Shown here in pieces: positions 3,344 to 64,000 of a stretch of 64,000 bases of DNA. The translations under genes were made by a program, and so were the position numbers. The notes beneath the pieces are model-generated. The model was not told the DNA's origin and did not search any database. It saw only the letters and a list, made by a program, of their open reading frames with translations. Location of the stretch: assembly GCA_028819345.1 (NCBI GenBank), contig JAPPLW010000004.1:3530-67529 (forward strand), read 5' to 3'. The number at the start of each line of letters is the position of its first letter. The stretch's first letter is position 1. The stretch comes from a bacterium (lineage in GTDB: Bacteria > Actinomycetota > Acidimicrobiia > Spongiisociales > ZC4RG35).

Positions 3344-5092
3344 TTGGGGATCATGCGTTCTTTAATCTCTCGTTCTCACCACAGGATCGCCGGTGCGGTG
3401 GCGGCGGCGCTGGCTCTGGCGGTCGGCGAGTTGATCGCCGGGGTCTCTCCGGCTTCCGTCTCCCTCACCGAAGCGGTAGGCGGTCTGGCGATCGACTATG
3501 TTCCGCCACCGGTCAAGGACTTCGCCATTGCGGTGTTCGGGATCTACGACAAGTTGGCCCTGATCATCGGAATGGTGGTGGTGACGGTCCTGCTGGGGGC
3601 TCTGGTAGGAAAAAGGGCGGCTAATCGCTGGTCGGTGGCCGTGTGGGTGTTCGGCCTGTTCGGCCTGTTGGGCGCTTTCTCCCTGCAGCGGGAGCCTGAC
3701 ATCGGATGGCCCTCGTCGATCATCTACGCGGCTGTGGCCGCGGCGGTGGCGCTCGTCGCACTCAGAGTCCTCTACCGATGGCTCCCGGCGGCGGCAACCG
3801 AGAGTGGCGATGCCTCCCCCGTCGAGGCGGATGTGGAAGGAGACGAGCACGCCGACGACGAAGTCGACCCGAGCGAATCGGCTCCCGAGTCGGAGCCCGA
3901 GATCTCTCGGCGGAAGTTCCTGGTGGGAGTGGGGGCGGTATTCGGGCTGGCGGTGGCGGCGGCCGCTGGCGGTCGCCTGCTTCTGGAGCGCACCAAGCAG
4001 GCCCTGGCCGGCCGGGAAGATGTCGTGCTTCCCCAGGCCACCACGACGACCACCACGAGCCCGACCACAACCGCGGCCAGCCCGTCGACCACCGAGGCGG
4101 GCGCCGGCGCAGTCGAGGCGACCACCACCACCACCGAGGCGACCACCACCACCGCGCCGGCGGTGGAGGGAGCGGGACCGCTTCCTGCCGGACACTCTCT
4201 GGATGTGGATGGGATCAGCCCGATCATCACCCCCAACGAGCATTTCTACCTGATCGACACCGCCCTCAGCCCGCCTCAGGTGAACCTGGAGGAGTGGACC
4301 CTGAAGGTCACCGGCTTGGTGGAAAACCCCTACGAGATCAGCTTCGATGAGTTGTTGACCCGACCGTTGGTGGAGCGATACGTGACGCTGTCCTGCGTCT
4401 CCAACCAGGTGGGAGGCTCTCTGGTCGGTCACGCCAAGTGGCTGGGGGTGCCGCTCAGCTTGATCCTGGACGAGGCCGGACTCCTTCCCCAGGCGGAGCA
4501 GATCGTGGGGCGCTCGGTGGACGGCTTTACGGTTGGTTTCCCCTCAAGCATTCCCTACGACGGCAGGGACGCCCTGGTGGCGGTGGGGATGAACGACGAG
4601 CCCCTTCCCATCGAGCACGGGTTCCCGGTCCGGTTGGTGGTGGCCGGGCTGTACGGTTATGTGTCCGCCACCAAGTGGCTATCCGAGTTGGAGTTGACTA
4701 CTTGGGACGGGTTTGACGCCTACTGGGTACCGAGGGGATGGGCCAAGGAGGCGCCTGTCAAGACCCAGTCGCGGATCGACACTCCCCTGGAAGGGCGCAT
4801 CGCGGCCCGTGCAAGGGCCATCGCCGGCGTTGCGTGGGCCCCTCACCGGGGGGTTGACCGAGTTGAGGTGCGGATCGACGAGGGAGAGTGGATCGAGGCG
4901 GAGTTGTCCAGCGAGATCTCTGACAACTCGTGGCGGCAGTGGAAGGTTGACTGGGATCCGGAGCCGGGCCGGTACAGGCTCCAGGTGCGGGCCACCGACG
5001 GCGACGGGATCACCCAGACCGATTTGCGGGTTCCTCCCGCCCCCGACGGAGCGACCGGCTGGCACACCATTCACGTGACCGTGGTCGCCTGA
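3344..5092 (+). CDS. membrane-anchored molybdopterin-dependent oxidoreductase (sulfite-oxidase / YedY-like fold)
   Basis: N-terminal ~150 aa hydrophobic (about 4 TM helices), then an acidic stretch, an SRRKFLVGVGAV twin-arginine-like segment and a Thr-rich linker. The oxidoreductase molybdopterin-binding core follows (HFYLIDTAL, YVTLSCVSNQVGG, HGFPVRLVVAGLYGYVSATKWL) with a C-terminal Ig-like domain. Confidence 0.8.
   Translation: MGIMRSLISRSHHRIAGAVAAALALAVGELIAGVSPASVSLTEAVGGLAIDYVPPPVKDFAIAVFGIYDKLALIIGMVVVTVLLGALVGKRAANRWSVAVWVFGLFGLLGAFSLQREPDIGWPSSIIYAAVAAAVALVALRVLYRWLPAAATESGDASPVEADVEGDEHADDEVDPSESAPESEPEISRRKFLVGVGAVFGLAVAAAAGGRLLLERTKQALAGREDVVLPQATTTTTTSPTTTAASPSTTEAGAGAVEATTTTTEATTTTAPAVEGAGPLPAGHSLDVDGISPIITPNEHFYLIDTALSPPQVNLEEWTLKVTGLVENPYEISFDELLTRPLVERYVTLSCVSNQVGGSLVGHAKWLGVPLSLILDEAGLLPQAEQIVGRSVDGFTVGFPSSIPYDGRDALVAVGMNDEPLPIEHGFPVRLVVAGLYGYVSATKWLSELELTTWDGFDAYWVPRGWAKEAPVKTQSRIDTPLEGRIAARARAIAGVAWAPHRGVDRVEVRIDEGEWIEAELSSEISDNSWRQWKVDWDPEPGRYRLQVRATDGDGITQTDLRVPPAPDGATGWHTIHVTVVA
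4037..4153 (+). repeat. Thr/Ala/Pro-rich low-complexity linker (runs of ACC codons) inside the Mo-oxidoreductase gene
   Basis: Translation ATTTTTTSPTTTAASPSTTEAGAGAVEATTTTTEATTTTAP. The DNA shows repeated accacc tracts. Confidence 0.7.
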
Positions 5093-8914: not shown

Positions 8915-8958
8915 CGGCTATCCGGCGCCCGTTGACGGGGCTGGAACAACCAGGCAAA

Positions 8959-8988
8959 GAGAAGGGGCCCCGGTTGGGGCCCCTTCTC
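8959..8988. terminator. bidirectional intrinsic terminator hairpin between convergent genes
   Basis: Perfect 13-bp GC-rich stem gagaaggggcccc / ggggccccttctc with loop ggtt. A-rich 5' flank and T-containing 3' flank. Sits between the stops at 8914 (+) and 9011 (-). Confidence 0.7.
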
Positions 8989-9010
8989 CTCGTTGCTTCG
9001 TCGTTCCCGG

Positions 9011-11275
9011 CTACGGCAGTCCGATGCTGGGATCGATGAACTCGTTGGTGACGATGTCGGTGGCCGTCACGTTCGGGTCCCAGGTCTCCAGTCCCTGCGG
9101 GCCGTAGATGTCGGCCAGAAGGGCGATCACCTCGTTGACCCGATCCAGGTCGAAGTCGCCGAGGGTGTCGTTGGGACCGTTCCCGATCAGGCCCAACTCG
9201 AGCTGGGCGTCGTGGGAGAACTGGGCCACTCCGGGACTGTATGTCCAGAAGCTCTCCAGCGCGGCCACGATCTCGACGATCTGGGCGTTGGTGGCGGCCG
9301 GGTCGGCGGCGTAGTCCACCTGGGCCTGTTGCACTAGGGGCACGAACAGCTCCCAGCACTCGCGGTACTCCTCGACGATGTCGGGCTTGGTGGCCAACAA
9401 CTGCGCGTACATCTCCAAGCCGGAGTCGTGGATCAGCATGAAGTCCACCGGCTTGCCCCAGTCCTCGAACTCGTACTGGTACTGGAAGGGTTCAGCCGAA
9501 GCGAATCCCTGCTGTACGAGGTTGCCCTCGGCGATGAACCGGGCGGGCGACCCGTCGTAGGAAGCGTCGATCTGGTCTTCGGTGACCCAGCCCCTACCCA
9601 ACAGGAAGTCGATGTAGGTGGCGCCCTCGAAATATAGGAGGGTCCCGTCGTTCGCTCTGAGCTGATCGCCCAAGTCCTCGAAACTCTCCAAACTGTATAC
9701 CTCGGGATCCCACATCACGATCTGGGGGTTCTTGTCGCGGGGGGCGACGATTCCCAGGGTGGGCTGGGAGCCATAGAGTCTCACCTGCTCATCGGTGTTG
9801 GTGTACGCCAGGTGGATCGACGGGTCCTGGTAGAGGAGCGAGATGTCGTTCTGGAAGCCGATGTATGGGCCGCCGGCCCGGACTTCCAGCATCACGCCGG
9901 TGTCGCCGATCTCGTTGGTGTAGGTCCCGTTAGTGGAGTCGATCACGCCTCCAGGACCGGCCAGGTGGTACAACTCGGAGTGCTCGGCCTCGGGGAACCA
10001 GTCGGTCTGGACCACGATCGTGGCGGGGCACACATCAGCCAGGGAAGCCATGGCCATGTCGTCCATGTCCATCGAGGGCAGTCCGATGCTCGGGTCGATG
10101 AACTCGTTGGTGACGATGTCGGTGGCTGTGACGTTCGGATCCCAGGTCTCCAGTCCCTGCGGACCGTAGATGTCGGCCAGCAGGGCGATGACCTCGTTGA
10201 CCCGATCAAGGTCGAAGTCGCCGAGGGTGTCGTTGGGGCCGTTCCCGATCAGGCCCAACTCGAGTTGGGCGTCATGGGAGAACTGCGCCACTCCCGGGCT
10301 GTAGGTCCAGAAGCTCTCCAGCGCGGCCACGATCTCGACGATCTGTGCGTTGGTGGCGGCCGGGTCGGCGGCGTAGTCCACTTGAGCCTGCTGCACCAGG
10401 GGCACGAACAGTTCCCAGCACTCGCGGTGTTCCTCGATGATGTCGGGCTTGGTGGCCAGCAGCTGCGCGTACATCTCCAAGCCGGAGTCGTGGATCAGCA
10501 TGATCTCGACCGGCTTGCCCCAGTCCTGGAACTCGTTCTGGTACATGTACGGCTCGGCAGAGGCGAATCCCTGCTGTACCAGGTTGCCCTCGGCGATGAA
10601 CCGGGCGGGAGACCCGTCGTATGAGGCGTCGACCTGGTCTTCGGACACCCAACCCTTGCCCAGCAGGTAATCGATGTAGGTGGCTCCCTCGAAATAGAGG
10701 AGGGTCGCCCCCGACGCGCCGATGTCGGCGAAGCTGTCGAAGGAGTACACGGCCGGGTCCCACATCACCATCTGGGGGTTCTTCTCGCGAGGAGCGACGA
10801 TGCCCAGAGTGGGTTGGGAAGCGGAGAGTCTCACCTGCTCATCGGTGTTGGTGTACGCCAGGTGGATCGACGAATCCTGGTAGAGGAGCGAGATGTCGTT
10901 CTGGAAGCCGATGTAGGGGCCGCCGGCCCGGACTTCCAGCATCACGCCCGTGTTACCGATCTCGTTGGTGTAGGTCCCGTTGGTGGAGTCGATCACGCCG
11001 CCCGGACCGGCCAGGTGGTACAACTCCGAGTGCTCGGCCTCGGGGAACCAGTCGGTCTGGACCACGATCGTGGCGGGGCACACATCAGCCAGGGCCACGT
11101 CCGGCATTGCTGCGGTGGTCTCGGTGGGTGCTGCCGTGGTGGCCGGCGCGGCGGTGGTGGCCGGCGCGGCGGTGGTCTCGGCGACTTCCTCGTCACCGTC
11201 TCCGCAGGCCGCTACGACCAGGGCCAGCACAGCCAAGGCGGCCAGCCACCTCGGCACCTTGCGATGGTTCTTCAT
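9011..11275 (-). CDS. lipoprotein: tandem double NMT1/THI5 (ThiY/SsuA-like) ABC substrate-binding protein
   Basis: ORF 9011..11377. ATG 11275 gives MKNHRKVPRWLAALAVLALVVAACGDG (lipobox LVVAAC). Two consecutive ~340-aa near-identical binding-protein modules follow. Downstream of the permease and ATPase genes of the same family. Confidence 0.85.
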   Translation of the reverse strand: MKNHRKVPRWLAALAVLALVVAACGDGDEEVAETTAAPATTAAPATTAAPTETTAAMPDVALADVCPATIVVQTDWFPEAEHSELYHLAGPGGVIDSTNGTYTNEIGNTGVMLEVRAGGPYIGFQNDISLLYQDSSIHLAYTNTDEQVRLSASQPTLGIVAPREKNPQMVMWDPAVYSFDSFADIGASGATLLYFEGATYIDYLLGKGWVSEDQVDASYDGSPARFIAEGNLVQQGFASAEPYMYQNEFQDWGKPVEIMLIHDSGLEMYAQLLATKPDIIEEHRECWELFVPLVQQAQVDYAADPAATNAQIVEIVAALESFWTYSPGVAQFSHDAQLELGLIGNGPNDTLGDFDLDRVNEVIALLADIYGPQGLETWDPNVTATDIVTNEFIDPSIGLPSMDMDDMAMASLADVCPATIVVQTDWFPEAEHSELYHLAGPGGVIDSTNGTYTNEIGDTGVMLEVRAGGPYIGFQNDISLLYQDPSIHLAYTNTDEQVRLYGSQPTLGIVAPRDKNPQIVMWDPEVYSLESFEDLGDQLRANDGTLLYFEGATYIDFLLGRGWVTEDQIDASYDGSPARFIAEGNLVQQGFASAEPFQYQYEFEDWGKPVDFMLIHDSGLEMYAQLLATKPDIVEEYRECWELFVPLVQQAQVDYAADPAATNAQIVEIVAALESFWTYSPGVAQFSHDAQLELGLIGNGPNDTLGDFDLDRVNEVIALLADIYGPQGLETWDPNVTATDIVTNEFIDPSIGLP
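9014..11092 (-). repeat. intragenic tandem duplication: two ~1.02 kb units (9014..10042 and 10076..11092) joined by a 33-nt linker
   Basis: DNA at 9015.. and 10077.. aligns by eye (offset 1062 nt at the 3' ends, 1050 nt at the 5' ends, so a 12-nt indel). The two protein halves start LADVCPATIVVQTDWFPEAEHSELYHLAGPGG and end NEFIDPSIGLP. Confidence 0.9.
11138..11173 (-). repeat. 18-nt tandem repeat (x2, plus a degenerate third copy) encoding the PATTAA linker after the lipobox
   Basis: ggtggccggcgcggcggt occurs twice in a row on the + strand. Translation on the minus strand is TTAAPATTAAPATTAAPTETTAA. Confidence 0.6.
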
Positions 11276-11351
11276 GTTGAATCTCCTTTCGTTCGAACCC
11301 TTGAGGTCTTGTCGTCTGAATGCGTCATTTAAGATTGGTCGACAGTGGCTT

Positions 11352-12158
11352 TCAGGTGGTTTCGTGCCATTTTCCAACTACCAGCCTACCCAGGAAACCG
11401 AATCCCCAGAAAACCAGAATGCCCAGCAGAGAGGAGAAGACCAGAGCGGTGAAAAGCTGTTCGGTGAGCAGCCGGGCCCGGTAGAGGTCGAGCAATCTTC
11501 CCAAACCGGGGATCCCCTTGCGGAAGAAGAACTCGCCGACGATGGCGCCGATTACCGAGAGACCTGCTGAAATACGGAACCCGGCGAAAATGGCGGGGAG
11601 GGCATTGGGAAACTGGAGCTTCACCAGGCGGGTCAGCCGGCTTGACCGGTGCAAAGTGAAGAGGTCATGGAAGGAGGCGGGCACCGACTGGAGACCGAAG
11701 AGGGTGTTGGTGATGATCGGGAAAATGGAGATGATCACGCACACCACCACCCGGCTGGTGAACCCGAACCCGAGCCACAGACCCACCAGGGGAACGATGG
11801 CCAGGATGGGCACGGTCTGGATGATCACCGCGTAGGGGTAGAAGGAGGTCTCCACCCACTTGGCCTGGCTCATCATGATGGCCGAAGTCATTCCCAGCAC
11901 TATGGCGATCACCAGGCCGGTCATGGAGACCGCCACCGTCCAGAGCAGTCCCTCCAGCACTTGGAACAGGTTGTCCTGGTTGACGAAACCGACGTCTATC
12001 ACCTCGTTCGGGGTGGGCAGCAGGAACTGCCGGTCGGGATCGAGGCTCAGGCTGATGGCGTACCAGATGCCCAACACCACGAGGAACACCACGATCGGGG
12101 GTCCCAGCCGGTAAGTGGAGGAGCGGAGCCGGGAGGAGGTGTGTCGGGCGGTGCTCAT
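11352..12158 (-). CDS. ABC transporter permease (nitrate/sulfonate/taurine NitT/TauT family)
   Basis: Six hydrophobic segments and the EAA-like loop LTRLVKLQFPNALPAIFAGFRISAGLSVIGAIVGEF. Abuts the ATPase gene (stop 12159 / start 12158). Confidence 0.85.
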   Translation of the reverse strand: MSTARHTSSRLRSSTYRLGPPIVVFLVVLGIWYAISLSLDPDRQFLLPTPNEVIDVGFVNQDNLFQVLEGLLWTVAVSMTGLVIAIVLGMTSAIMMSQAKWVETSFYPYAVIIQTVPILAIVPLVGLWLGFGFTSRVVVCVIISIFPIITNTLFGLQSVPASFHDLFTLHRSSRLTRLVKLQFPNALPAIFAGFRISAGLSVIGAIVGEFFFRKGIPGLGRLLDLYRARLLTEQLFTALVFSSLLGILVFWGFGFLGRLVVGKWHETT

Positions 12159-12953
12159 CTATTCATCTCTCAGGACTTCGGAGACTTCTCCGGTCAACTC
12201 GGCGAACGCCGGGTCGAATCGAAGGTCCAGATCGCGGGGGTAGGGAAACGGGATACTGAAAGACTTGAGTATGCGCCCGGGCCGGGAGGACATCACCAGG
12301 ACGTCGGTTGACAGGAACACCGCCTCGTACAGGTTGTGGGTGATGAACACCGCCCCGAAACCGGCGTGGGCGAAAATCCGCAGCAACTCCAGGTTGAGGT
12401 ATTCCCGGGTGATCTCATCCAGGGCCCCGAACGGCTCGTCGAAGAAGAAGAGAGGAGGATCCAGGGTGAGGGACCTCGCCAGAGAAACCCTCATCTTCAT
12501 CCCGCCCGACAATGCGGCGGGGTAATGCCGGTTGAACCCGCTCAGGCCCACCAGTTCGATGGCGTCCTTGGCTCTCTTACGCCTCTCGCTCCGATCGAAA
12601 CCGCGCAGTTCGCAGAAGAGTTCCACGTTCTTCTGAACGGTCCGCCAGGGCAGGAGAGTGGCGTCCTGGAAGACGTAACCCAGGTTCCCCTCGGACCGGC
12701 GGACTTCACCGGAGCTGGCTGAGAGGAGGCCCGATCCCATTCTGAGCAATGTGGACTTACCGCAGCCGGAGGGGCCGACGACCGTCACGAACTGGCCCGG
12801 TTCCACCTTGAATGAGACACTGTCCACCGCATGGGTCCCGTCGGGGAAGGTCTTGCTGACGTTCTCGAAGGAGATCAGGGTGGAGGAAGAACCGCCGCCC
12901 CGCGTGTCTCCATGGTTCGAGGGCTGGATGTTTGAGATTTGTCGGTCCCCCAT
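12159..12953 (-). CDS. ABC transporter ATP-binding protein (NitT/TauT family)
   Basis: Walker A GPSGCGKSTLLRM, signature LSGGMKMRVSLARSL, Walker B LFFFDEPFGALD. Confidence 0.9.
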   Translation of the reverse strand: MGDRQISNIQPSNHGDTRGGGSSSTLISFENVSKTFPDGTHAVDSVSFKVEPGQFVTVVGPSGCGKSTLLRMGSGLLSASSGEVRRSEGNLGYVFQDATLLPWRTVQKNVELFCELRGFDRSERRKRAKDAIELVGLSGFNRHYPAALSGGMKMRVSLARSLTLDPPLFFFDEPFGALDEITREYLNLELLRIFAHAGFGAVFITHNLYEAVFLSTDVLVMSSRPGRILKSFSIPFPYPRDLDLRFDPAFAELTGEVSEVLRDE

Positions 12954-12965
12954 CCGTGTCTTGGA

Positions 12966-14171
12966 TTAGTTGCTTCCAGAGGCGACCACTACGCCCTCTC
13001 TCATGGTAATCCGCGCGGGGCGGATAGAAAGCGCTTCGTTGAGAGTTTTCGCTTCCACGAAGGCCAGATCGGCCCTCTCTCCCGACCTGGGAGCGGACCG
13101 GCCGTCACTGAGAGCGGAGAGGAGGAAGGCGTCGTCGTACAGGTGCCCGGCCAGCCTCGCCAGGTAGCCCACTTCCAGGGGGTCTGCGGTGGGAAAGGGA
13201 CAGAAGGTGTCGTCCACGTTGTCGACGCCCAGCCTCACATGCACCCCTTCATCGATCAGCAGGTTGATGGGCGCCAGGGCCCGGCGGGGTGAGTGGACCC
13301 GGTATTCGTGCAGGATCAGGTTGGTGCGCGGCTGGCAGTTGACGGTTATCCCCAGCCCGGCCATGCGTCGAGCGAGGGAGCGGGTCTGCTGTTCTCCCAG
13401 TGCGCTCAGGAGGCAGCAGTGGCTGAACGAGACCCGTCCCTCCAAACGTCGGCGCTCCACCTCGTCGAGGGCGAAGTCCATCAGGAGCCGGCTGGGATCC
13501 AGCGTCTCGTCTATGTGCACATCTACCTCCACGCCGGTTCTCACCGCCAGTTCCATCATCGAACTGATCGACTCGGACGGCCGGGAGTCATGATTGGGTG
13601 AGCCCCCGATCAGCTGGTACCTGCCCATGCTCAGGTCCCTGTGCAGCCTCGATGTCTCCTCCCGGTCTGTAAGGGTGTCCGCTACTGCGAAGGCAACCAA
13701 TTCGATCTCCATGACCTTCTTCATCTGCTCCCGCACTTCCCCCATCACCTCCCACCGGGGGGCGGCGATGTGTTCGGGGTGGCACCCGACATGGCCCCTG
13801 GCCCGGGTGGCGCCGTTGGTCGACAGGGTGGAGAAGAGTTTTCTGGCCCGTTCGGCGGCGGTCTCCGGTATGTAGCCCTCCGGCCTAGCCCCCGTCTCGA
13901 TGGCGTCCTCCAGGGAACGGGGTGGGCGGGGAGAGCCGACGTATGCGCGGTCGGGATGCAGGTGCGGCTCGGCGAAAGACGGCATGGCCAGGTGCGAAGG
14001 CTCCGGGACGAGCCCTCCCGGCCGGTCGGGGAAGGGTTTGATCTCGGTGATGAGGCCGCGGCGCATCGAGATGACCTGAGGTCTCGAATACTCGGATACG
14101 TTGACCGGCCCGACAGCCGCGGGCCGGTCTCCTTCAGCCAGGCGCCGGGGGTGGGTGGGCAATTCCCTCAT
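12966..14171 (-). CDS. cytosine-deaminase-like amidohydrolase (CodA / creatinine deaminase / AtzC family)
   Basis: FAEPHLHPD (HxH), VDVHIDETLDP, SFSHCC and RLGVDNVDD line up with the CodA metal/active-site motifs as I remember them. The start overlaps the upstream stop (ATGA at 14168..14171). Confidence 0.75.
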   Translation of the reverse strand: MRELPTHPRRLAEGDRPAAVGPVNVSEYSRPQVISMRRGLITEIKPFPDRPGGLVPEPSHLAMPSFAEPHLHPDRAYVGSPRPPRSLEDAIETGARPEGYIPETAAERARKLFSTLSTNGATRARGHVGCHPEHIAAPRWEVMGEVREQMKKVMEIELVAFAVADTLTDREETSRLHRDLSMGRYQLIGGSPNHDSRPSESISSMMELAVRTGVEVDVHIDETLDPSRLLMDFALDEVERRRLEGRVSFSHCCLLSALGEQQTRSLARRMAGLGITVNCQPRTNLILHEYRVHSPRRALAPINLLIDEGVHVRLGVDNVDDTFCPFPTADPLEVGYLARLAGHLYDDAFLLSALSDGRSAPRSGERADLAFVEAKTLNEALSIRPARITMREGVVVASGSN

Positions 14172-15622
14172 TGGTAGAGAACGGTGGTCAGGGGGATATC
14201 TGTTCTGCCCAGGCCGGCCCGGGTGCGGATGCCTGCGGCCCTCCTCCGGGCTTCGACGTGCAGTGCAGCCTCGTCGATGCCGATCACCCGGCCATTACGA
14301 AAGCAGGGCCGACCGTCTACCCAGGTCTCGTGCACCGAAGCCGTCGACGCCGACCAGACCAGCGCCGAGAGGGGGTCGCCGTAGGGTATCCACTCGGGGT
14401 GGTCGAGGTCCCACAACACGAAGTCGGCCTTCTTTCCCACCTCCAGCGAGCCGATCTGATCATCCATGCCCAGGGCCTTGGCCCCATCGATGGTGGCCAT
14501 ACGCAGCGCCTGGCGCGCCCCCACCAGCGAAGCATCCATGCGGGCATCCTTGAACAGACCGGCGGCGAGGTGCACCTGGCGGTGCAGGTTGAGATTGCCC
14601 GCGGCGGAGACGCCGTCGGTCCCCAGGCCCACCGTCACTTCCGCCTCCATCATCTCGGGGTACTTTCCGATCGAGGTGGCGCCTTTGGCGAGTTTCAGAG
14701 AAGTGGACGGACAGAAGGCCACCTTGGTCCGATGGGAGGAGAGAAGATCCACCTCCTCCGGCGTCACCGCCACCGCATGAGCGATCACCAGGTTGTCGCC
14801 CAAGCCTCCTGCTCGCGCCACCCTGGTGATCGGCCAGCTTCCATGGCGTCGTTGGGAGATCTCCGCTTCGGCCAGGGAGGTGGCGAGGTGGTAGGTCGTG
14901 CCCACCCCCAGTCTCGCCGCCAGTTCCCGCGCGCCCACATGAAGCTCCAGACTGCAGGGCTCCTTCCCCTCGATGTTCACCCACACCCCGAGTCGCCCCC
15001 CGGCCGACCCGTTCCAGGCGGAAACCGTCTCGGCCAGGGCTTCAAGCGCCGCCTCGGCGTCGGGAAAGAAGTGATGATCGACTATCTCGGTCGACCAGCC
15101 TCGGGGGATCTCGGTGGGTTTGACGTCGGCGGCGTGGCGGCCGGTGATACCCCGGATCCCGGTCTGTTCCACGGCGGAGGCCACCGGCGCCGGGTCGTTC
15201 TGGGCGCCCATGTCCAGAAAGCAGGTGGTCCCTCCCCGTAGCATCTCCGCGGTCCCCAGGAGCGCCCCCACCTCTTCGTCCTCGGGACTGACATGGGCGT
15301 AGAAGGGCTTCGCCCAGTGGAACACCCAGGTGCGGGTGTCGATCACATCGGGGAACACCGCCCTGGACAGCGTTTCGGAGAGGTGGACGTGGGAGTCAAC
15401 CAGTCCGGGAGTCAGTCCCAAGCGCCGACCATCCAGCCGATCCACGGGTTGGCCCCCGGCGCCCGAGTGCATCCTCTTTTCAACCTCGGCCGTGGCGCCC
15501 AAGTCCTTTATCCGATCGCCTTCTATCAGGATTGCTCCGTCGGTTATCACCCGGTCATCCCGGTCGCAGGTTATGGCGAATTCCAGGCGTTCTATAAGGA
15601 TCAATGAGGTCACGGGGATCAC
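14168..15622 (-). CDS. amidohydrolase, Atz/Trz / SsnA / MTA-SAH-deaminase-like family
   Basis: PGLVDSHVHLSE (HxH), GTTCFLDMG, TYHLATS, HAVAVTPEE and GLGTDGVSA are typical of the chlorohydrolase/aminohydrolase subgroup. Confidence 0.8.
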   Translation of the reverse strand: MIPVTSLILIERLEFAITCDRDDRVITDGAILIEGDRIKDLGATAEVEKRMHSGAGGQPVDRLDGRRLGLTPGLVDSHVHLSETLSRAVFPDVIDTRTWVFHWAKPFYAHVSPEDEEVGALLGTAEMLRGGTTCFLDMGAQNDPAPVASAVEQTGIRGITGRHAADVKPTEIPRGWSTEIVDHHFFPDAEAALEALAETVSAWNGSAGGRLGVWVNIEGKEPCSLELHVGARELAARLGVGTTYHLATSLAEAEISQRRHGSWPITRVARAGGLGDNLVIAHAVAVTPEEVDLLSSHRTKVAFCPSTSLKLAKGATSIGKYPEMMEAEVTVGLGTDGVSAAGNLNLHRQVHLAAGLFKDARMDASLVGARQALRMATIDGAKALGMDDQIGSLEVGKKADFVLWDLDHPEWIPYGDPLSALVWSASTASVHETWVDGRPCFRNGRVIGIDEAALHVEARRRAAGIRTRAGLGRTDIPLTTVLYQ

Positions 15623-15647: not shown

Positions 15648-16538
15648 CTAGGAAGGGTATGTGGCCCGATAACGCATGTACAAGTAGTCCCCCGCTTTGC
15701 GAACCGACAGGATCTTCATCCTCGGTATGTCATCGGGGAGCCAACCGGTTCCCTCCACCAGGCTGGGCCTTGGGTTGCCGGGACTCTCTCCCACCACCAG
15801 CGGCGACCGGGTGATGAAGGGCTCATGCATGATCCCGGCTTTGAGGAGGGCACCGTATAGCGTGGCGCCGCCCTCGCACAGGAGGAACTCGACACCGTAA
15901 TCTCCGGCCATTATGCGGGCGTAGCGCTCCAGGTTCACTCCGCTGCTTCCAAACTCGAGGATGTCGATCTTGCCGGCCGGCCGGACCGTGGCGCGAATTT
16001 TCCGGGCGCCGGCCCTGGTGGTGGCCACCACCACGTGGGCGTCCTCCATCGAGAACACCTTGGCCTCGGTTGGAAGGTTGCCGTCGAGGGTTATGTAGGA
16101 GATGATGGGGAGTTCCGAGCGGTTCTCGTGCCGGCGGAGGGCGGCGAAGGCATCCTTGTCTCCGGGATAGATGTCTTCGGATGTGTTGACGTGGCTGGGT
16201 TCGGCTCGGAGGGTTCCCTCGCCTATGACCACGGCGTCGGCTCGGGCGCGGAGCAAGCCCATCAGCCACACATCGTTGTCGTTGAACCCCGAGATCGGGC
16301 CGCCTCCCCGGTGGTCGGGGTGGTTGAAGGCCACTCGGCCGTCATGAGAGGTGACGAAATTGGCCGCCAGCAGGGGCAGGCCCTTGACAGGAGGCTTGAG
16401 TCGCAGGGGACCGCCGTACACCGCTGCGAGGTCAGGGTGCAGTTCCAGTCCCTCTCCGTCGGAGGCCGTTTCCTCATCGAACAACGTCTCGAACCGAAGA
16501 GCCGGTCCATGTACCGAGATGGGGGTGTCTTGTGTCAT
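15648..16538 (-). CDS. RibD C-terminal-domain (dihydrofolate-reductase-like) reductase family protein
   Basis: NFVTSHDGRVAF, DVWLMGLLRARADAVVIGEGTL and LLCEGGATLYGALLKAG resemble the pyrimidine-reductase domain of RibD. No deaminase domain is present. Confidence 0.7.
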   Translation of the reverse strand: MTQDTPISVHGPALRFETLFDEETASDGEGLELHPDLAAVYGGPLRLKPPVKGLPLLAANFVTSHDGRVAFNHPDHRGGGPISGFNDNDVWLMGLLRARADAVVIGEGTLRAEPSHVNTSEDIYPGDKDAFAALRRHENRSELPIISYITLDGNLPTEAKVFSMEDAHVVVATTRAGARKIRATVRPAGKIDILEFGSSGVNLERYARIMAGDYGVEFLLCEGGATLYGALLKAGIMHEPFITRSPLVVGESPGNPRPSLVEGTGWLPDDIPRMKILSVRKAGDYLYMRYRATYPS

Positions 16539-59708: not shown

Positions 59709-60234
59709 ACTGGTGATCTTCGTGCTGATGGGGGCGGGGACATTGGCCGGCGGGGTGACGGTGGTCCTGGCCCGCAACCCGGTCCGCTCCGCGTTGGGTC
59801 TCCTGGGAGCCTTGGTCTCCCTGGCTGTCATATACGTGGTCAACCTGGCCCACCTGGTGGCTGCCGTGCAGGTGGTGGTTTATGCGGGAGCGGTGTTGAC
59901 TCTGTTCCTGTTCGTGATCATGTTCATCGGCGTGGACCGCGCCGAGGACACTTCCGAGACCATCCCCCTCCAGCGCAAACTGGTGGCCGGGCTCGCCACC
60001 GTGGTGGCCCTGGGAGCGGCGGTCCTGGTGTCGAGGGGCCGGTTCACCTGGACCCCCGCTTCGGGGGAGGCGGCCGAGATCCCCAACGGCACGGTTCAGG
60101 CTCTGGGAGGAGAGCTCTTCACCACCTGGGTGCTGGGAGTTGAGGTGACCGCTCTGTTGCTGACCATCGCCGCGGTGGGGGCGATCGCCCTGGCTTTCCA
60201 CCGACGGTCCGCCGAGTCGCCGACGGAGGACTGA
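59701..60234 (+). CDS. nuoJ: NADH-quinone oxidoreductase subunit J
   Basis: Five hydrophobic helices. [10 protein letters not shown] and [16 protein letters not shown] are typical NuoJ. Position between nuoI and nuoK. Confidence 0.85.
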
Positions 60235-60538
60235 TGCCCGTCGTAACCCCGGGCTGGTACATGACGCTGGCGGCCGTCCTGTTCGTCCTGGGGATGACCG
60301 GGGTCCTGATCAGACGGAACGCCCTGGTGATGTTCATGTGCGTGGAGTTGATGCTCAATGCGGTCAACCTGACCTTCGTGGCCGCCGGCCGGGCGGCGGG
60401 AGTGCTGGACGGGCAGGTGGCGGTGTTCTTCGTGCTGGTGGTGGCGGCCGCCGAGGTGGTGGTGGGCCTGGCCATCATCGTCGCCATATTCAGGAGGCGG
60501 GAGACCGCCTCCGTCGACGAGTTGGCGGCGCTCCGGGG

Positions 60539-60542
<4 letters not shown>
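60234..60542 (+). CDS. nuoK: NADH-quinone oxidoreductase subunit K
   Basis: 102 aa with [31 protein letters not shown] and [11 protein letters not shown]. Confidence 0.9.
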
Positions 60543-62440
<1,898 letters not shown>

Positions 62441-62450
62441 GTCGCCGGCC

Positions 62451-63995
62451 ATGCTGACCCTGCTGGTTCTCACGCCCCTCCTGGGGGCGGTGGTGGTCTC
62501 CCTGGTCCCGGCCCGTCGTCGGGAACTGCACCTGCCGCTGGGCATAGCCCTGTCCGTGGCGCCCCTGGGGCTGGCGGGAGCGATGTTTTTCTCCTTCGAC
62601 GCGGGGGAGGCTTCCTTCCAGATGGTCGAGAAGGTGGTGTGGTGGGAACCGTGGGGGGTGTCCTGGCAACTGGGCGTGGACGGGATCTCGCTGGGGATGG
62701 TGGCTCTCACGGCCATCCTGTTCCCCCTCAGCCTGGCGGTCTCCGACTCCATCTCCCACCGGCGCAAGGCATTCGTGGTGGCCATGCTCTTTCTGGAGAC
62801 GGGCCTGATCGGCACCTTCCTCGCCCTGGACCTGCTGCTGTTCTTCGTGTTCTTCGAGGTGATCCTGGTCCCCATGTACCTGATAATCGGTGTGTGGGGA
62901 GGCAAGCGCCGGGTTTACGCGGCCGTGAAGTTCTTCATCTACACCGCGTTCGGTTCGGCGCTGCTGCTGGCGGCGATCATCGCCCTGGCTGTCATGCATG
63001 CCTCCCAGGCCCCCGACGGCCTGCTCAGCTTTGACTACCTGGCTTTGCTGGCTCTGGACATCTCTCCGACCGCCCAGATGTGGCTGTTCGGAGCATTCGC
63101 CCTGGCCTTCGCCATCAAGGTGCCCCTGTTTCCCTTCCACACCTGGCTTCCCGACGCCCATGTGGAAGCGCCCACGGCCGGGTCGGTGCTCCTGGCGGGA
63201 GTCCTCCTGAAGCTCGGAACATACGGGTTGCTCCGGTTCAACCTCACGCTCTTTCCCGAGGCCACGGTCTCCCTGGTGCCGGTCCTGGCGGTCCTGGCCG
63301 TGGTGGGAATCATCTACGGGGCGGTGGTGGCCATCGTCCAGCCCGACCTGAAGAAGTTGGTCGCCTATTCGTCGGTCAGCCACCTGGGGTTCGTGGTGCT
63401 GGGGATTTTCGCCCTCACTTCAGCCGGACTCCAGGGCGCGGTTATTCAGAACGTCAACCACGGGCTCACCACCGGCGCGCTGTTCCTCCTCGTCGGGATG
63501 CTGTATGACCGGCGTCACACCAAACAGATCAGCGACTTCGGGGGCCTGGCCACACCGGCTCCCCTCATGGCCGGGTTCTTCCTGTTCATGGCCTTCGCCT
63601 CCATCGGCCTGCCCGGTCTCAACGGGTTCGTGGGGGAATTCCTGGTGTTGGTGGGTAGCTTCCCCTCTCTTCCGGGCCTGACGGTGGTGGCGGCGTTCGG
63701 CGTCGTGCTGGCCGCCATATACATGTTGTGGGCCTACCAGCGGGTGTTCACGGGACCGCTGAAGGGAGCCGAGAACCGGAAACTCACCGACCTCTCGGCC
63801 AAGGAGACGGCGGTGATGGCGCCCCTGGCGGCCTTGGTCTTGCTGCTTGGCCTGTATCCGGGCATCCTCCTGGAGCGGACCGCTCCATCCGTGGAGGCGA
63901 TTCTCGACCGCATCGAGCAGTACACCGACTATGAGGCGCCCGATCCGGGAAGATTGGCGGACGTTTTCAACACCGCCTCGGAGGATGAATCGTGA
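62451..63995 (+). CDS. nuoM: NADH-quinone oxidoreductase subunit M
   Basis: FFEVILVPMYLIIGVWGG, KVPLFPFHTWLPDAHVEAPTAGSVLLAGVLLKLGTYG and KKLVAYSSVSHLGF are present. Confidence 0.9.
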   Translation: MLTLLVLTPLLGAVVVSLVPARRRELHLPLGIALSVAPLGLAGAMFFSFDAGEASFQMVEKVVWWEPWGVSWQLGVDGISLGMVALTAILFPLSLAVSDSISHRRKAFVVAMLFLETGLIGTFLALDLLLFFVFFEVILVPMYLIIGVWGGKRRVYAAVKFFIYTAFGSALLLAAIIALAVMHASQAPDGLLSFDYLALLALDISPTAQMWLFGAFALAFAIKVPLFPFHTWLPDAHVEAPTAGSVLLAGVLLKLGTYGLLRFNLTLFPEATVSLVPVLAVLAVVGIIYGAVVAIVQPDLKKLVAYSSVSHLGFVVLGIFALTSAGLQGAVIQNVNHGLTTGALFLLVGMLYDRRHTKQISDFGGLATPAPLMAGFFLFMAFASIGLPGLNGFVGEFLVLVGSFPSLPGLTVVAAFGVVLAAIYMLWAYQRVFTGPLKGAENRKLTDLSAKETAVMAPLAALVLLLGLYPGILLERTAPSVEAILDRIEQYTDYEAPDPGRLADVFNTASEDES

Positions 63996-64000
63996 TCCCC
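63992..64000 (+). CDS. nuoN: probable start of nuoN (only 9 nt visible)
   Basis: GTG at 63992 overlaps the nuoM stop (GTGA), and nuoN is the expected next gene. No sequence is available to confirm it. Confidence 0.3.

What the first reader, a model, noticed from the sequence alone, without database searches (positions are those of the whole stretch)
9011..11275. ABC substrate-binding lipoprotein is an internal tandem duplication of two complete NMT1/ThiY-type modules
One lipobox-containing ORF encodes two consecutive ~340-aa binding-protein modules joined by SMDMDDMAMAS. The first ~95 and last ~115 residues of the modules are nearly or fully identical at protein level. Amino-acid differences and a 4-aa indel cluster in the middle (roughly residues 95-260 of each module). 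The identical protein ends still carry synonymous DNA differences (e.g. ggccgtcacgttcgggtcc vs ggctgtgacgttcggatcc). So this is neither an assembly artefact nor a very recent duplication, and both copies look to be under purifying selection. A double-headed binding protein could deliver two related ligands to one permease. It could also simply raise capture avidity.
Basis: seen in the sequence. Interest (0 to 1): 0.65.

Follow-up and report, generated by a model that had tools for sequence, protein, structure and literature searches.

The report
Two-headed binding lipoprotein, halves evolving together
One gene encodes a membrane-anchored nutrient-capture protein with two nearly identical ThiY-like binding modules; in most of about 100 relatives recombination keeps the two modules alike, but here a short central patch has stayed different since before the related species diverged.

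Summary
The gene is on the minus strand (9011-11275). It encodes a lipoprotein with two 339/343-aa modules joined by SMDMDDMAMAS. The modules are 90% identical in DNA and 91-92% in protein, with 61 synonymous codon differences, 26 non-synonymous ones and a 4-aa indel (dN/dS 0.125). Fold search puts each module nearest ThiY, Thi5, TauA and SsuA. The gene ends an operon with a TauC/SsuC-like permease, an ATPase, two amidohydrolases and a RibD_C reductase.

About 100 protein clusters only 39-48% identical to this one have the same two-module build. In each, the two halves are 85-100% identical, and in several long-read genomes they match at every base. In 16 syntenic relatives with the same linker, half-versus-half dS is mosaic and far below the species divergence. 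This is concerted evolution by non-allelic recombination.

The window gene is one of the least homogenised. Its central region carries two old types, alpha and beta (beta has the DQLR insert). Each type tracks the species tree and predates most of the clade's radiation. Both halves keep the conserved residues. No three-module protein was found.

I read it as a two-headed binding protein for an N-heterocycle importer. This is a new variant of tandem binding-domain systems, of moderate interest.

The parts
9011..11275 (-). Complete gene for the two-module substrate-binding lipoprotein (754 aa plus stop)
   Evidence: The AF2 model has mean pLDDT 87.3 with both modules confident.
11283..11288 (-). 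Shine-Dalgarno sequence AAGGAG, 7 nt upstream of the ATG at 11275
   Evidence: read directly from the sequence
11204..11275 (-). Signal peptide with lipobox (MKNHRKVPRWLAALAVLALVVAAC; Cys24 is invariant in the family)
11093..11203 (-). Disordered Thr/Ala/Pro-rich spacer (aa 25-61). It contains an 18-nt tandem repeat at 11136-11176.
   Evidence: (pLDDT below 50)
10076..11092 (-). Module N (aa 62-400, 339 aa), ThiY/NMT1-like type II binding fold
10043..10075 (-). Met/Asp-rich inter-module linker SMDMDDMAMAS (aa 401-411). It is disordered in the model, and the same linker type is conserved across the syntenic clade.
9014..10042 (-). Module C (aa 412-754, 343 aa), the second copy of the same fold
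10469..10828 (-). Region B of module N (module codons 89-208), the alpha type. This is the central region that has not been homogenised with module C.
   Evidence: dS 0.56 and dN 0.11 against module C. The alpha clade mirrors the species tree.
9407..9778 (-). Region B of module C (module codons 89-212), the beta type
10706..10744 (-). Alpha patch (aa 178-190, SFDSFADIGASGA). It covers the short helix 183-188 of the middle part of the module.
   Evidence: All fixed alpha/beta differences fall here.
9644..9694 (-). Beta patch (aa 528-544, SLESFEDLGDQLRANDG) with the 4-aa DQLR insert. The helix is lengthened to 532-541.
   Evidence: The insert is present in only about 1% of family representatives.
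8955..8992 (-). Terminator-like hairpin with a 17-bp stem, just downstream of the stop codon. The binding-protein gene is the last gene of the operon.
11352..12158 (-). ABC permease (BPD_transp_1; nearest NCBIfam models are SaoP, NtrB, SsuC and TauC, all below cut-off)
12159..12953 (-). ABC ATPase (nearest models are TauB and SaoA, below cut-off)
12966..14171 (-). Cytosine-deaminase-like amidohydrolase
14168..15622 (-). Amidohydrolase of the TRZ/ATZ and guanine-deaminase type
15648..16538 (-). RibD_C-type (pyrimidine) reductase, first gene of the co-oriented cluster

Best explanation
The gene encodes a lipid-anchored substrate-binding protein. It carries two complete, independently folded ThiY/NMT1-like type II binding modules on a flexible tether. 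It serves the adjacent importer, which has one permease gene and one ATPase gene of the nitrate/sulfonate/taurine type.

Shown:
- The two-module architecture was inherited from the ancestor of a clade of marine Acidimicrobiia, many of them MAGs whose isolate names suggest sponge or coral sources.
- The architecture is also found in many more distant relatives.
- The two halves do not diverge freely. Non-allelic homologous recombination between the adjacent 1-kb direct repeats (gene conversion and/or unequal crossover) repeatedly overwrites one half with the other, in tracts.
- In the window gene the N-terminal third (dS 0.14) and the C-terminal third (dS 0.35) are old conversion tracts.
- The central third (dS 0.56, dN 0.11) has escaped conversion. 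It holds two old allelic types, alpha in module N and beta (with a one-turn helix extension) in module C. Both types have been inherited vertically since before most of the clade radiated.

Inferred:
- Both heads are functional and dock on the same permease.
- Two heads are kept by selection. Perfect 1-kb direct repeats are expected to be prone to recombinational loss, yet the pair persists across species divergences of dS above 1, and no protein with three modules was found.
- The main benefit is more capture sites per anchor and per transporter.
- In this lineage the two heads may differ slightly in surface or ligand preference.
- The substrate is probably a small N-heterocycle or cyclic amide (pyrimidine-, creatinine- or hydantoin-like).
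For: Anatomy:
- ORF, lipobox, modules and linker; RBS and terminator.
- AF2 model with pLDDT 87.3. Both modules are confident, the linker 403-408 is disordered, and pTM is 0.53.

Fold and system:
- Foldseek top hits are ThiY 3ix1 (E 1.6e-14, TMt 0.79), the thiamin-binding protein 4nmy, Thi5, TauA and SsuA.
- The permease and ATPase are nearest to the SaoP, NtrB, SsuC and TauC/TauB models.

Concerted evolution:
- In 103 two-module homologues the halves are 84-100% identical, with two exceptions at 45% and 63%. The proteins themselves are only 39-48% identical to the query.
- In 65 of 103 proteins, the N half has its own C half as nearest relative.
- In species-representative genomes the halves are 100% identical in DNA over about 1 kb in L013, L018, L020, L024, L025, L027, L028 and L030.
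- In the 16-genome syntenic clade with the conserved linker, half-to-half dS per region is 0-0.1 in most genomes. The permease dS between species is 0.2-1.1. The patterns are mosaic, for example L005 with 0.37/0.08/0.01.
- In the query, synonymous divergence differs between regions (chi-square 12.8, p = 0.0017).

The alpha/beta island:
- The region B tree splits cleanly into alpha and beta clades, and each mirrors the permease tree.
- L015 (permease dS 1.09 from the query) is still alpha/beta. L010 (dS 0.27) was recently converted to alpha/alpha. L002 is beta/beta.

Both heads intact: 69 of 71 conserved columns are kept in both halves.

Exactly two modules: no protein with three matched stretches appears among the best 150 hits in 1.84 billion cluster representatives.

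Substrate context: the operon holds two amidohydrolases and a RibD_C reductase. A creatinase-like M24 protein and a further amidohydrolase lie next to it. The arrangement is conserved in relatives.
Against: - No binding, transport or expression data exist. The relative position of the two modules is not predicted with confidence (pTM 0.53), so an obligate intramolecular pair cannot be excluded.
- The fixed alpha/beta differences are 9 non-synonymous to 1 synonymous, against 40:89 for variable sites (Fisher p = 3.6e-4). This fits functional differentiation better than two equivalent heads.
- The dS values come from the NG86 method in a gene with GC3 of 0.88, so they are compressed and noisy over 90-130 codons.
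- I cannot separate gene conversion from cycles of unequal crossover (2 to 3 to 2 copies).
- Whether the many two-module clades descend from one duplication or several is unresolved. Parsimony on an NJ tree gives at least 10 changes between one and two modules. Some 'single' genes in short-read MAGs may be collapsed doubles.
- The substrate guess rests only on gene neighbourhood and a distant fold match.
Confidence: 0.72

Rival explanations
1. Two-specificity heads. Module N (alpha) and module C (beta) recognise different ligands, or the same ligand with different affinity, and deliver both to one permease, as SBD1 and SBD2 of GlnPQ do. Selection for this difference protects the central region from homogenisation.
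For: - The alpha/beta dimorphism is older than most of the clade's radiation and is retained in 6 of 16 genomes (Q, L001, L007, L008, L009, L015).
- Fixed alpha/beta differences are 9 non-synonymous to 1 synonymous, against 40:89 for variable sites (p = 3.6e-4).
- These differences sit in one patch that starts a few residues after the invariant NPQ(M/I)(I/V)MWDP motif.
Against: - Ten of 16 genomes in the clade have lost the dimorphism by conversion (nine alpha/alpha, one beta/beta). Most of the wider family has identical heads. Two different heads are therefore not required.
- No column conserved at 90% or more differs between the halves.
- The clustered changes plus the indel could be one complex mutational event. 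Divergence itself blocks recombination, so persistence need not mean selection.
- The insert lengthens the C-terminal end of a helix, which in this fold usually points away from the cleft. This is inference; I had no coordinates.
Confidence: 0.2
2. Obligate pair. The two modules work only together, as an intramolecular pseudo-dimer or by matching the two-fold symmetric homodimeric permease. This would explain why there are exactly two and why they are kept alike.
For: - No three-module protein among the best hits in 1.84 billion representatives, although unequal crossover between identical repeats should produce such genes.
- There is a single permease gene and a single ATPase gene, so the transporter is a homodimer.
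- Thi5, a structural relative, was deposited with up to eight chains per entry. I recall it being a dimer in solution; that was not checked here.
Against: - The linker is disordered in the model. Across clades it varies from 7 to 27 residues with unrelated sequences, which is typical of a flexible tether.
- Single-module relatives are the majority of the family and sit beside the same kind of permease. Rhodococcus has two separate genes.
- In other genomes the same module is fused to unrelated binding domains (Peripla_BP_6, OpuAC) rather than to itself.
Confidence: 0.12
3. Simple ageing duplicate. One duplication happened at a time corresponding to dS of about 0.3, and the halves have since diverged under purifying selection without any exchange. 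This is the reading implicit in the finding.
For: Overall dS is 0.34 and dN/dS is 0.125.
Against: - The architecture and linker are shared by genomes whose permease dS from the query is up to 1.1. The duplication is therefore much older than dS 0.3.
- Synonymous divergence differs threefold to fourfold between regions (p = 0.0017).
- In region B the halves group by type across species. In regions A and C they group by genome or genome group.
- Close relatives have identical halves (L010, L013).
Confidence: 0.03
4. Assembly artefact. Two alleles, two strains or two separate genes were stitched into a tandem, or a repeat was expanded.
For: None specific. The window's sequencing technology is unknown and no reads are available.
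Against: - The ORF is intact and in frame, with a conserved linker.
- The same structure is found in 16 independent assemblies, including 2.3-3.1 Mb contigs and chromosome-level records.
- The halves differ by 10%, so short reads could resolve them.
Confidence: 0.01

Closest known systems
ThiY (FAMP/HMP-binding protein, PDB 3ix1) and the NMT1/Thi5, SsuA and TauA group of type II binding proteins of nitrate/sulfonate/taurine-type ABC importers
   Same: - Each module has this fold (Foldseek E 1.6e-14 to 1e-7, TM on target 0.6-0.8).
- Pfam NMT1 is just above its cut-off.
- The adjacent permease and ATPase are of the matching type.
- It is a lipoprotein.
   Different: - Sequence identity is only 11-18%. 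There is no PDB hit by sequence and no NCBIfam model.
- It has two modules in one chain, whereas the listed single-domain structures are about 270-340 residues long.
- The neighbourhood is amidohydrolases and a reductase, not thiamin or sulfonate genes, and no riboswitch was found.
Tandem substrate-binding domains of GlnPQ (SBD1-SBD2, PDB 6h30) and related amino-acid importers of Gram-positive bacteria
   Same: - Two complete binding domains sit in series on flexible linkers and feed one translocator (PMC8025302, abstract).
- The model aligns over both domains to 6h30, though with poor rmsd.
   Different: - In GlnPQ the domains are fused to the membrane domain, and they differ in specificity and affinity (PMC8025302, PMC11331510 abstracts).
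- Here the pair is a separate lipoprotein, has the ThiY-like fold, is 91% identical, and is kept alike by recombination.
Concerted evolution of bacterial paralogues by gene conversion (for example tufA/tufB and rRNA operons from my own knowledge; release-factor genes, PMC4530459)
   Same: - Copies within a genome are more alike than orthologues between genomes.
- The identity is at the DNA level.
- The tracts are mosaic.
   Different: - Here the exchanging units are two halves of one reading frame, 33 nt apart.
- An internal island resists conversion.
Identical tandem repeats in Gram-positive surface proteins (alpha C, Rib; from my own knowledge)
   Same: In-frame repeats in a cell-surface protein, identical at the DNA level and homogenised by recombination.
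   Different: - Those repeats are about 80 aa, are non-enzymatic spacers, and vary widely in number.
- Here the unit is a 340-aa ligand-binding fold, and the number in one gene is always one or two.

Membership tests
NMT1/ThiY/SsuA-type substrate-binding proteins (Pfam PF09084 clan; partners of nitrate/sulfonate/taurine-type ABC importers) | Sequence match to the family model above the curated threshold | tested here: inconclusive
   PF09084 scores 22.5 bits against a cut-off of 20.5 for the whole protein, and no single stretch passes alone. A relative, P0070, scores 30.9 bits. NCBIfam gives 0 hits. A PDB sequence search gives 0 hits at E up to 10.
NMT1/ThiY/SsuA-type substrate-binding proteins | Type II periplasmic-binding fold closest to ThiY, Thi5, SsuA and TauA | tested here: met
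   In the Foldseek PDB search, ranks 1-21 are ThiY, the thiamin-binding protein 4nmy, Thi5 and TauA. E is 1.6e-14 to 7e-10 and TM on target is 0.60-0.79. The model pLDDT is 87.
NMT1/ThiY/SsuA-type substrate-binding proteins | Encoded beside a TauC/SsuC-type permease and a TauB/SsuB-type ATPase | tested here: met
   The permease gene (11352-12158) and ATPase gene (12159-12953) lie immediately upstream on the same strand. The best models are SaoP, NtrB, SsuC and TauC, and TauB and SaoA, all below the equivalog cut-offs.
NMT1/ThiY/SsuA-type substrate-binding proteins | Binds a defined small ligand in the inter-lobe cleft | not testable with these tools
   Needs DSF, ITC or a structure. Only the conservation of 69 of 71 family-conserved columns in both halves could be shown.
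Tandem substrate-binding-domain ABC importers (GlnPQ type) | Two complete binding domains in series in one polypeptide | tested here: met
Tandem substrate-binding-domain ABC importers (GlnPQ type) | Binding domains covalently fused to the transmembrane domain | tested here: not met
   The binding protein is a separate gene with its own signal peptide and lipobox. The permease is a separate 268-aa protein.
Tandem substrate-binding-domain ABC importers (GlnPQ type) | The two domains differ in specificity or affinity | not testable with these tools
   The halves are 91% identical. Only a 17-residue patch is consistently different.
Concerted evolution by gene conversion or unequal recombination | Paralogous copies within a genome are more similar than orthologous copies between genomes | tested here: met
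   For example, L013, L016 and L011 have half-to-half dS of 0-0.01, while their nearest-species permease dS is 0.53-0.64.
Concerted evolution by gene conversion or unequal recombination | Mosaic tracts, with different parts of the repeat having different histories | tested here: met
   Region-wise dS values and trees. Heterogeneity in the query has p = 0.0017. Q_C against L007_N in region C shows 1 difference in 393 nt, against 20-27 for orthologous pairs.
Concerted evolution by gene conversion or unequal recombination | Homogeneity at the DNA level, not only at the protein level | tested here: met
   100.0% nucleotide identity over about 1 kb in eight species-representative genomes.
Diversity-generating retroelement target (considered) | Differences between the repeats confined to adenines of one copy | tested here: not met
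   Mismatches are spread over all bases (A 18, C 38, G 22, T 20 in the N half), and 70 of 98 are at third codon positions.

The most novel reading that the evidence does not exclude
The two-headed architecture has arisen repeatedly in marine Actinomycetota, as at least three or four separate in-frame duplications with different junctions. It is actively kept at exactly two copies. In the window's lineage a recombination-resistant island (the beta helix extension) marks the first step towards two functionally distinct heads. This would be a natural series, spread across sequenced genomes, running from one head, to two identical heads held together by gene conversion, to two specialised heads.
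Probability: 0.25. Interest if true: 0.72.

Novelty: new variant of a known kind. Interest (0 to 1): 0.56.

Why it matters
Tandem binding domains are known in ABC importers from a few well-studied cases such as GlnPQ, where they are fused to the membrane domain and differ in specificity.

Here there is a large, unannotated family, almost entirely labelled 'hypothetical protein'. Its members are free lipoproteins with two ThiY-like heads.
- It offers a test of what a second, identical head is worth to a cell, for example in capture rate at low substrate.
- It also gives an unusually clear bacterial example of concerted evolution inside one reading frame. It includes an island that has escaped homogenisation, and natural 'revertants' in sister species (alpha/alpha and beta/beta) that can serve as controls.
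- For annotation, perfect 1-kb in-frame repeats are likely to be collapsed in short-read MAGs. Copy number in this family is therefore probably under-reported.

Tried and rejected
- PDB sequence search with one module gave no hit at E up to 10. NCBIfam had no model.
- An Rfam scan of the whole window found no riboswitch or other RNA family, so there is no regulatory clue to the ligand.
- No tRNAs were found. Tandem Repeats Finder cannot see a 1-kb period and found only the 18-nt repeat in the spacer.
- tblastn of the module against the window found no further copy.
- A DGR-like origin of the differences is rejected because there is no adenine bias.
- I considered that selection specifically keeps the two C-terminal thirds identical in protein while the DNA drifts (23-26 synonymous against 0-2 non-synonymous differences). 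I rejected it because the same allele is equally frozen between species: Q_N against L008_N shows 28 synonymous and 0 non-synonymous differences, and omega is 0.03 or less within this allele group against a median of 0.16.
- Four literature searches for tandem or duplicated binding lipoproteins, or for concerted evolution of binding-protein halves, found nothing relevant. A fifth returned only GlnPQ-type work.
- The luciferase-like gene comparison used a wrong frame for the window copy, and I ignored it.
I could not measure how far the alpha/beta patch lies from the cleft or from the other module.
- A single origin of all two-module proteins could not be shown. NJ trees with bootstrap place the query clade next to single-module proteins in 46 of 60 replicates.
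Full report
**1. The observation**

The feature is real and sits at the stated coordinates, on the minus strand. ORF 9011-11275 (-) starts at an ATG seven bases after AAGGAG and encodes 754 aa. A strong hairpin at 8955-8992 follows it. The protein reads as follows:
- a signal peptide with lipobox LVVAAC|G;
- a disordered Thr/Ala/Pro spacer;
- module N (aa 62-400);
- the linker SMDMDDMAMAS;
- module C (aa 412-754).

The repeat finder independently reports the direct repeat at a spacing of 1062 and 1050 nt. In a codon alignment, 252 codons are identical, 61 differ synonymously and 26 non-synonymously, and there is one 4-codon indel. NG86 gives dS 0.34, dN 0.043 and dN/dS 0.125. The last 115-130 codons have 23-26 synonymous and 0-2 non-synonymous differences. 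Of 98 mismatches, 70 are at third positions and there is no adenine bias, so this is not a diversity-generating retroelement.

**2. What each module is**

By sequence the modules are almost orphan. Pfam NMT1 scores 22.5 bits against a cut-off of 20.5. NCBIfam has no model, and no PDB chain matches by sequence.

An AlphaFold2 model built on 58 homologues is confident for both modules (mean pLDDT 87.3). The N-terminal 57 residues and linker residues 403-408 are disordered, and pTM is 0.53, so the mutual orientation of the modules is undefined.

Foldseek against the PDB ranks these first:
- ThiY, the formylaminopyrimidine-binding protein (3ix1, E 1.6e-14, TM 0.79);
- a thiamin-binding protein (4nmy);
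- Thi5;
- TauA and SsuA.

**3. Surroundings**

The gene is the last of a co-oriented cluster:
- RibD_C-type reductase (15648-16538);
- amidohydrolase of the TRZ/ATZ and guanine-deaminase type (14168-15622);
- cytosine-deaminase-like amidohydrolase (12966-14171);
- ABC ATPase (12159-12953);
- permease (11352-12158);
- the binding protein.

Next to the cluster lie a creatinase/prolidase-like M24 protein, a flavodoxin-like reductase and a further amidohydrolase. The arrangement is conserved in relatives. No riboswitch or other Rfam family is present in the window.

From this context and the ThiY-like fold I infer a small N-heterocycle or cyclic amide as substrate. This is inference only.

**4. 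Family context changes the reading**

A search of 5.8 billion proteins returned about 100 clusters of 740-850 aa that cover the whole query at only 39-48% identity, followed by single-module proteins of 415-546 aa. I split every hit into modules. In 103 two-module proteins the two halves of the same protein are 84-100% identical, and many are 100% identical. Two exceptions stand at 45% and 63%. For 65 of 103 proteins, the nearest relative of the N half is its own C half.

At the DNA level, species-representative genomes, most of them records titled 'chromosome' or multi-megabase contigs, show 100.0% identity between halves over about 1 kb in eight cases and 99.3-99.9% in five more. The window-like group is the most diverged, at 85-92% identity. 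Homogeneity is therefore a DNA-level phenomenon and not protein-level constraint.

**5. Proof of exchange within the query's own clade**

Sixteen genomes share the synteny and the linker type SMDMDxMxMA[ST]. The permease gene gives a time scale. Its dS from the query is:
- 0.19 (L007), 0.23 (L009) and 0.27 (L010);
- 0.40 (L001) and 0.54-0.55 (L008, L002);
- 0.67-0.86 (L003, L004, L011-L013, L016);
- 1.07-1.09 (L005, L006, L015).

Half-to-half dS, for regions A (codons 1-88), B (89-212) and C (213-343), is:

| Genome | A | B | C |
|---|---|---|---|
| Window gene | 0.14 | 0.56 | 0.35 |
| L001 | 0.16 | 0.55 | 0.37 |
| L002 | 0.07 | 0 | 0.01 |
| L005 | 0.37 | 0.08 | 0.01 |
| L010 | 0.07 | 0 | 0.06 |
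| L013 | 0 | 0 | 0 |

The duplication is older than the clade, yet most regions of most genomes are far younger than the species splits, and the pattern is mosaic. In the window gene the heterogeneity of synonymous divergence is significant (chi-square 12.8, p = 0.0017). This is the signature of gene conversion and/or unequal crossover between the adjacent repeats.

One striking tract stands out. Region C of the query's module C differs from region C of L007's module N by 1 of 393 nt, against 20-27 nt for orthologous pairs. This points to a recent, register-shifted exchange between lineages.

**6. The central island**

Region-wise trees show that regions A and C cluster by genome or genome group. 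Region B splits into two clean clades:
- alpha: module N of the query, plus both halves of L003-L006, L010-L013 and L016;
- beta: module C of the query, L001, L007, L008, L009 and L015, plus both halves of L002.

Within each clade the branching mirrors the permease tree. L015, at permease dS 1.09, is still alpha/beta. The dimorphism therefore predates the split of L015 from the query, which covers the clade except possibly the basal L005/L006 pair. It has been lost repeatedly by conversion, most recently in L010.

All fixed alpha/beta differences lie in module codons 117-133: alpha is SFADIG----ASGA and beta is SFEDLGDQLRxNDG. In the model, the 6-residue helix 183-188 of module N becomes the 10-residue helix 532-541 in module C. 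Fixed differences are 9 non-synonymous to 1 synonymous, against 40:89 for variable sites (Fisher p = 3.6e-4). This fits adaptive differentiation, but it could equally be one complex mutational event. Once diverged (78% nucleotide identity plus an indel), the segment would resist recombination anyway. The DQLR insert is found in about 1% of family representatives, so it is a novelty of this clade.

**7. Are both heads intact?**

Across 117 family representatives, 71 columns are at least 90% conserved. Both halves keep 69 of them and deviate identically at the other two. None of the 26 substitutions touches such a column. Two invariant cysteines per module (C66/C286 and C416/C640) may form a disulfide, which is inference.

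**8. Copy number in the family**

A full scan of 1.84 billion cluster representatives with one module found 213 clusters at E of 1e-30 or better. Only three of the listed representatives have two full matched stretches, and none has three. Most are single-module proteins of about 390-400 aa.

On an NJ tree the two-module clades are interspersed with single-module ones. The query clade is monophyletic in 60 of 60 bootstraps, and its sister is all-single in 46 of 60. Parsimony needs at least 10 changes between one and two modules.

Linkers differ in length (7-27 aa), composition and register between clades. For example, P0094 repeats PEDAMMTS exactly before each module, and P0010 repeats GGAE(T/A)A(V/A)G after each. 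This suggests several independent duplications and/or many collapses, but I cannot decide between them. Perfect doubles may also be collapsed to 'singles' in short-read assemblies.

Three loci illustrate other states:
- Rhodococcus sp. IEGM 1408 has the unfused state, two adjacent lipoprotein genes that are 65% identical.
- L022 carries a decayed double.
- In several Acidimicrobiales genomes a third copy of the module forms the C-terminal domain of a neighbouring lipoprotein whose other domain is Peripla_BP_6. In L024 and L028 this copy is 100% identical in DNA to both halves.

**9. Mechanism**

Shown:
- a two-module lipoprotein;
- a ThiY-like fold;
- a cognate permease and ATPase;
- recombinational homogenisation with an escaped island;
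- both halves conserved.

Inferred:
- Both heads bind substrate and dock on the same permease.
- Because perfect 1-kb direct repeats are expected to be prone to recombinational deletion, their persistence over dS above 1 implies selection for two heads.
- The likeliest benefit is more capture sites per anchor and transporter, as argued for transporters with tethered tandem domains.
- The alpha/beta patch may tune surface or ligand preference in this lineage.

Rivals are two-specificity heads (0.2), an obligate pair (0.12), a simple ageing duplicate (0.03) and an artefact (0.01).

**10. Comparison and novelty**

The closest functional analogue is the tandem SBD1-SBD2 of GlnPQ (PMC8025302, PMC11331510). 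Those domains are fused to the membrane domain and differ in specificity. The fold relatives (ThiY, SsuA, TauA) are single-domain proteins. Concerted evolution of bacterial paralogues is known, for example in release-factor genes (PMC4530459). My literature searches found no description of it between the halves of a binding protein, nor of this family, whose few source names are 'hypothetical protein' with one 'ABC transporter substrate-binding protein'.

I class it as a new variant of a known kind, with moderate interest (0.56). It is not a new principle. It is a large unrecognised family that offers a clean natural experiment on tandem binding domains and on intragenic gene conversion.

Noticed in passing
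L024 8199-11018 (also L017, L018, L020, L021, L028, L029): A second lipoprotein gene lies about 100 nt downstream of the two-module gene. It encodes signal peptide/lipobox, a long Ala/Glu-rich spacer, a Peripla_BP_6 (LivJ-like) domain and one copy of the same module. In L024 and L028 this third copy is 100% identical in DNA to both halves of the neighbouring gene. In L018 and L020 it is 84% identical.
   Followed up: partly
P0070 (1007 aa); also P0127, P0136, P0163, P0184, P0190: These are chimeric multi-domain binding proteins. P0070 is module-module-OpuAC domain. Several proteins of 740-1133 aa carry one module plus 400-780 residues of other sequence. The module seems to be a portable unit in multi-headed lipoproteins.
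   Followed up: partly
L077 5887-7137 and 7591-8871 (Rhodococcus sp. IEGM 1408): Two separate adjacent lipoprotein genes of this family, 65% identical and each with its own signal peptide and lipobox, lie directly after the permease gene. This is the unfused counterpart, in a named isolate rather than a MAG.
   Followed up: partly
L022 6088-7936: A relative (77% identity) on a chromosome-level record has a decayed version. Module 1 is frameshifted near its end, and it is followed by fragments of a second module (query positions 68-179 and 274-339 in another frame).
   Followed up: partly
window 9014-9406 versus L007 module N region C: Region C of the window's module C differs from region C of L007's module N by 1 of 393 nt, whereas orthologous pairs differ by 20-27 nt. 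This suggests a recent exchange between lineages in shifted register.
   Followed up: partly
window 10043-10075 (linker) and homologous linkers: The linkers are rich in Met and Asp in several clades (SMDMDDMAMAS, DMDMDMDMPMAA, ADAMMMAS, EMMEEVAVD). I did not examine whether this is more than a flexible low-complexity tether, for example a metal-binding Met motif.
   Followed up: no
window 11136-11176: A perfect 18-nt tandem repeat (2.3 copies) encodes the TTAAPA repeats of the spacer between the lipobox and module N. Spacer length varies widely in the family, up to about 140 Ala/Glu-rich residues in P0016, P0109 and L024.
   Followed up: no
window module region C (9014-9406 and 10076-10468) and orthologues: One allele group of region C (Q_N, Q_C, L001_N, L007_N, L008_N) evolves with omega of 0.03 or less, for example 28 synonymous and 0 non-synonymous differences between Q_N and L008_N. 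The median omega for other pairs at similar dS is 0.16.
   Followed up: partly
window 60001-64000: AT skew is strongly negative (-0.28 to -0.30) in the last 4 kb of the window, compared with about -0.16 to +0.06 elsewhere.
   Followed up: no
window 4114-4153: A perfect 21-nt tandem repeat (1.9 copies, CGAGGCGACCACCACCACCAC) was reported by Tandem Repeats Finder. I did not examine it.
   Followed up: no
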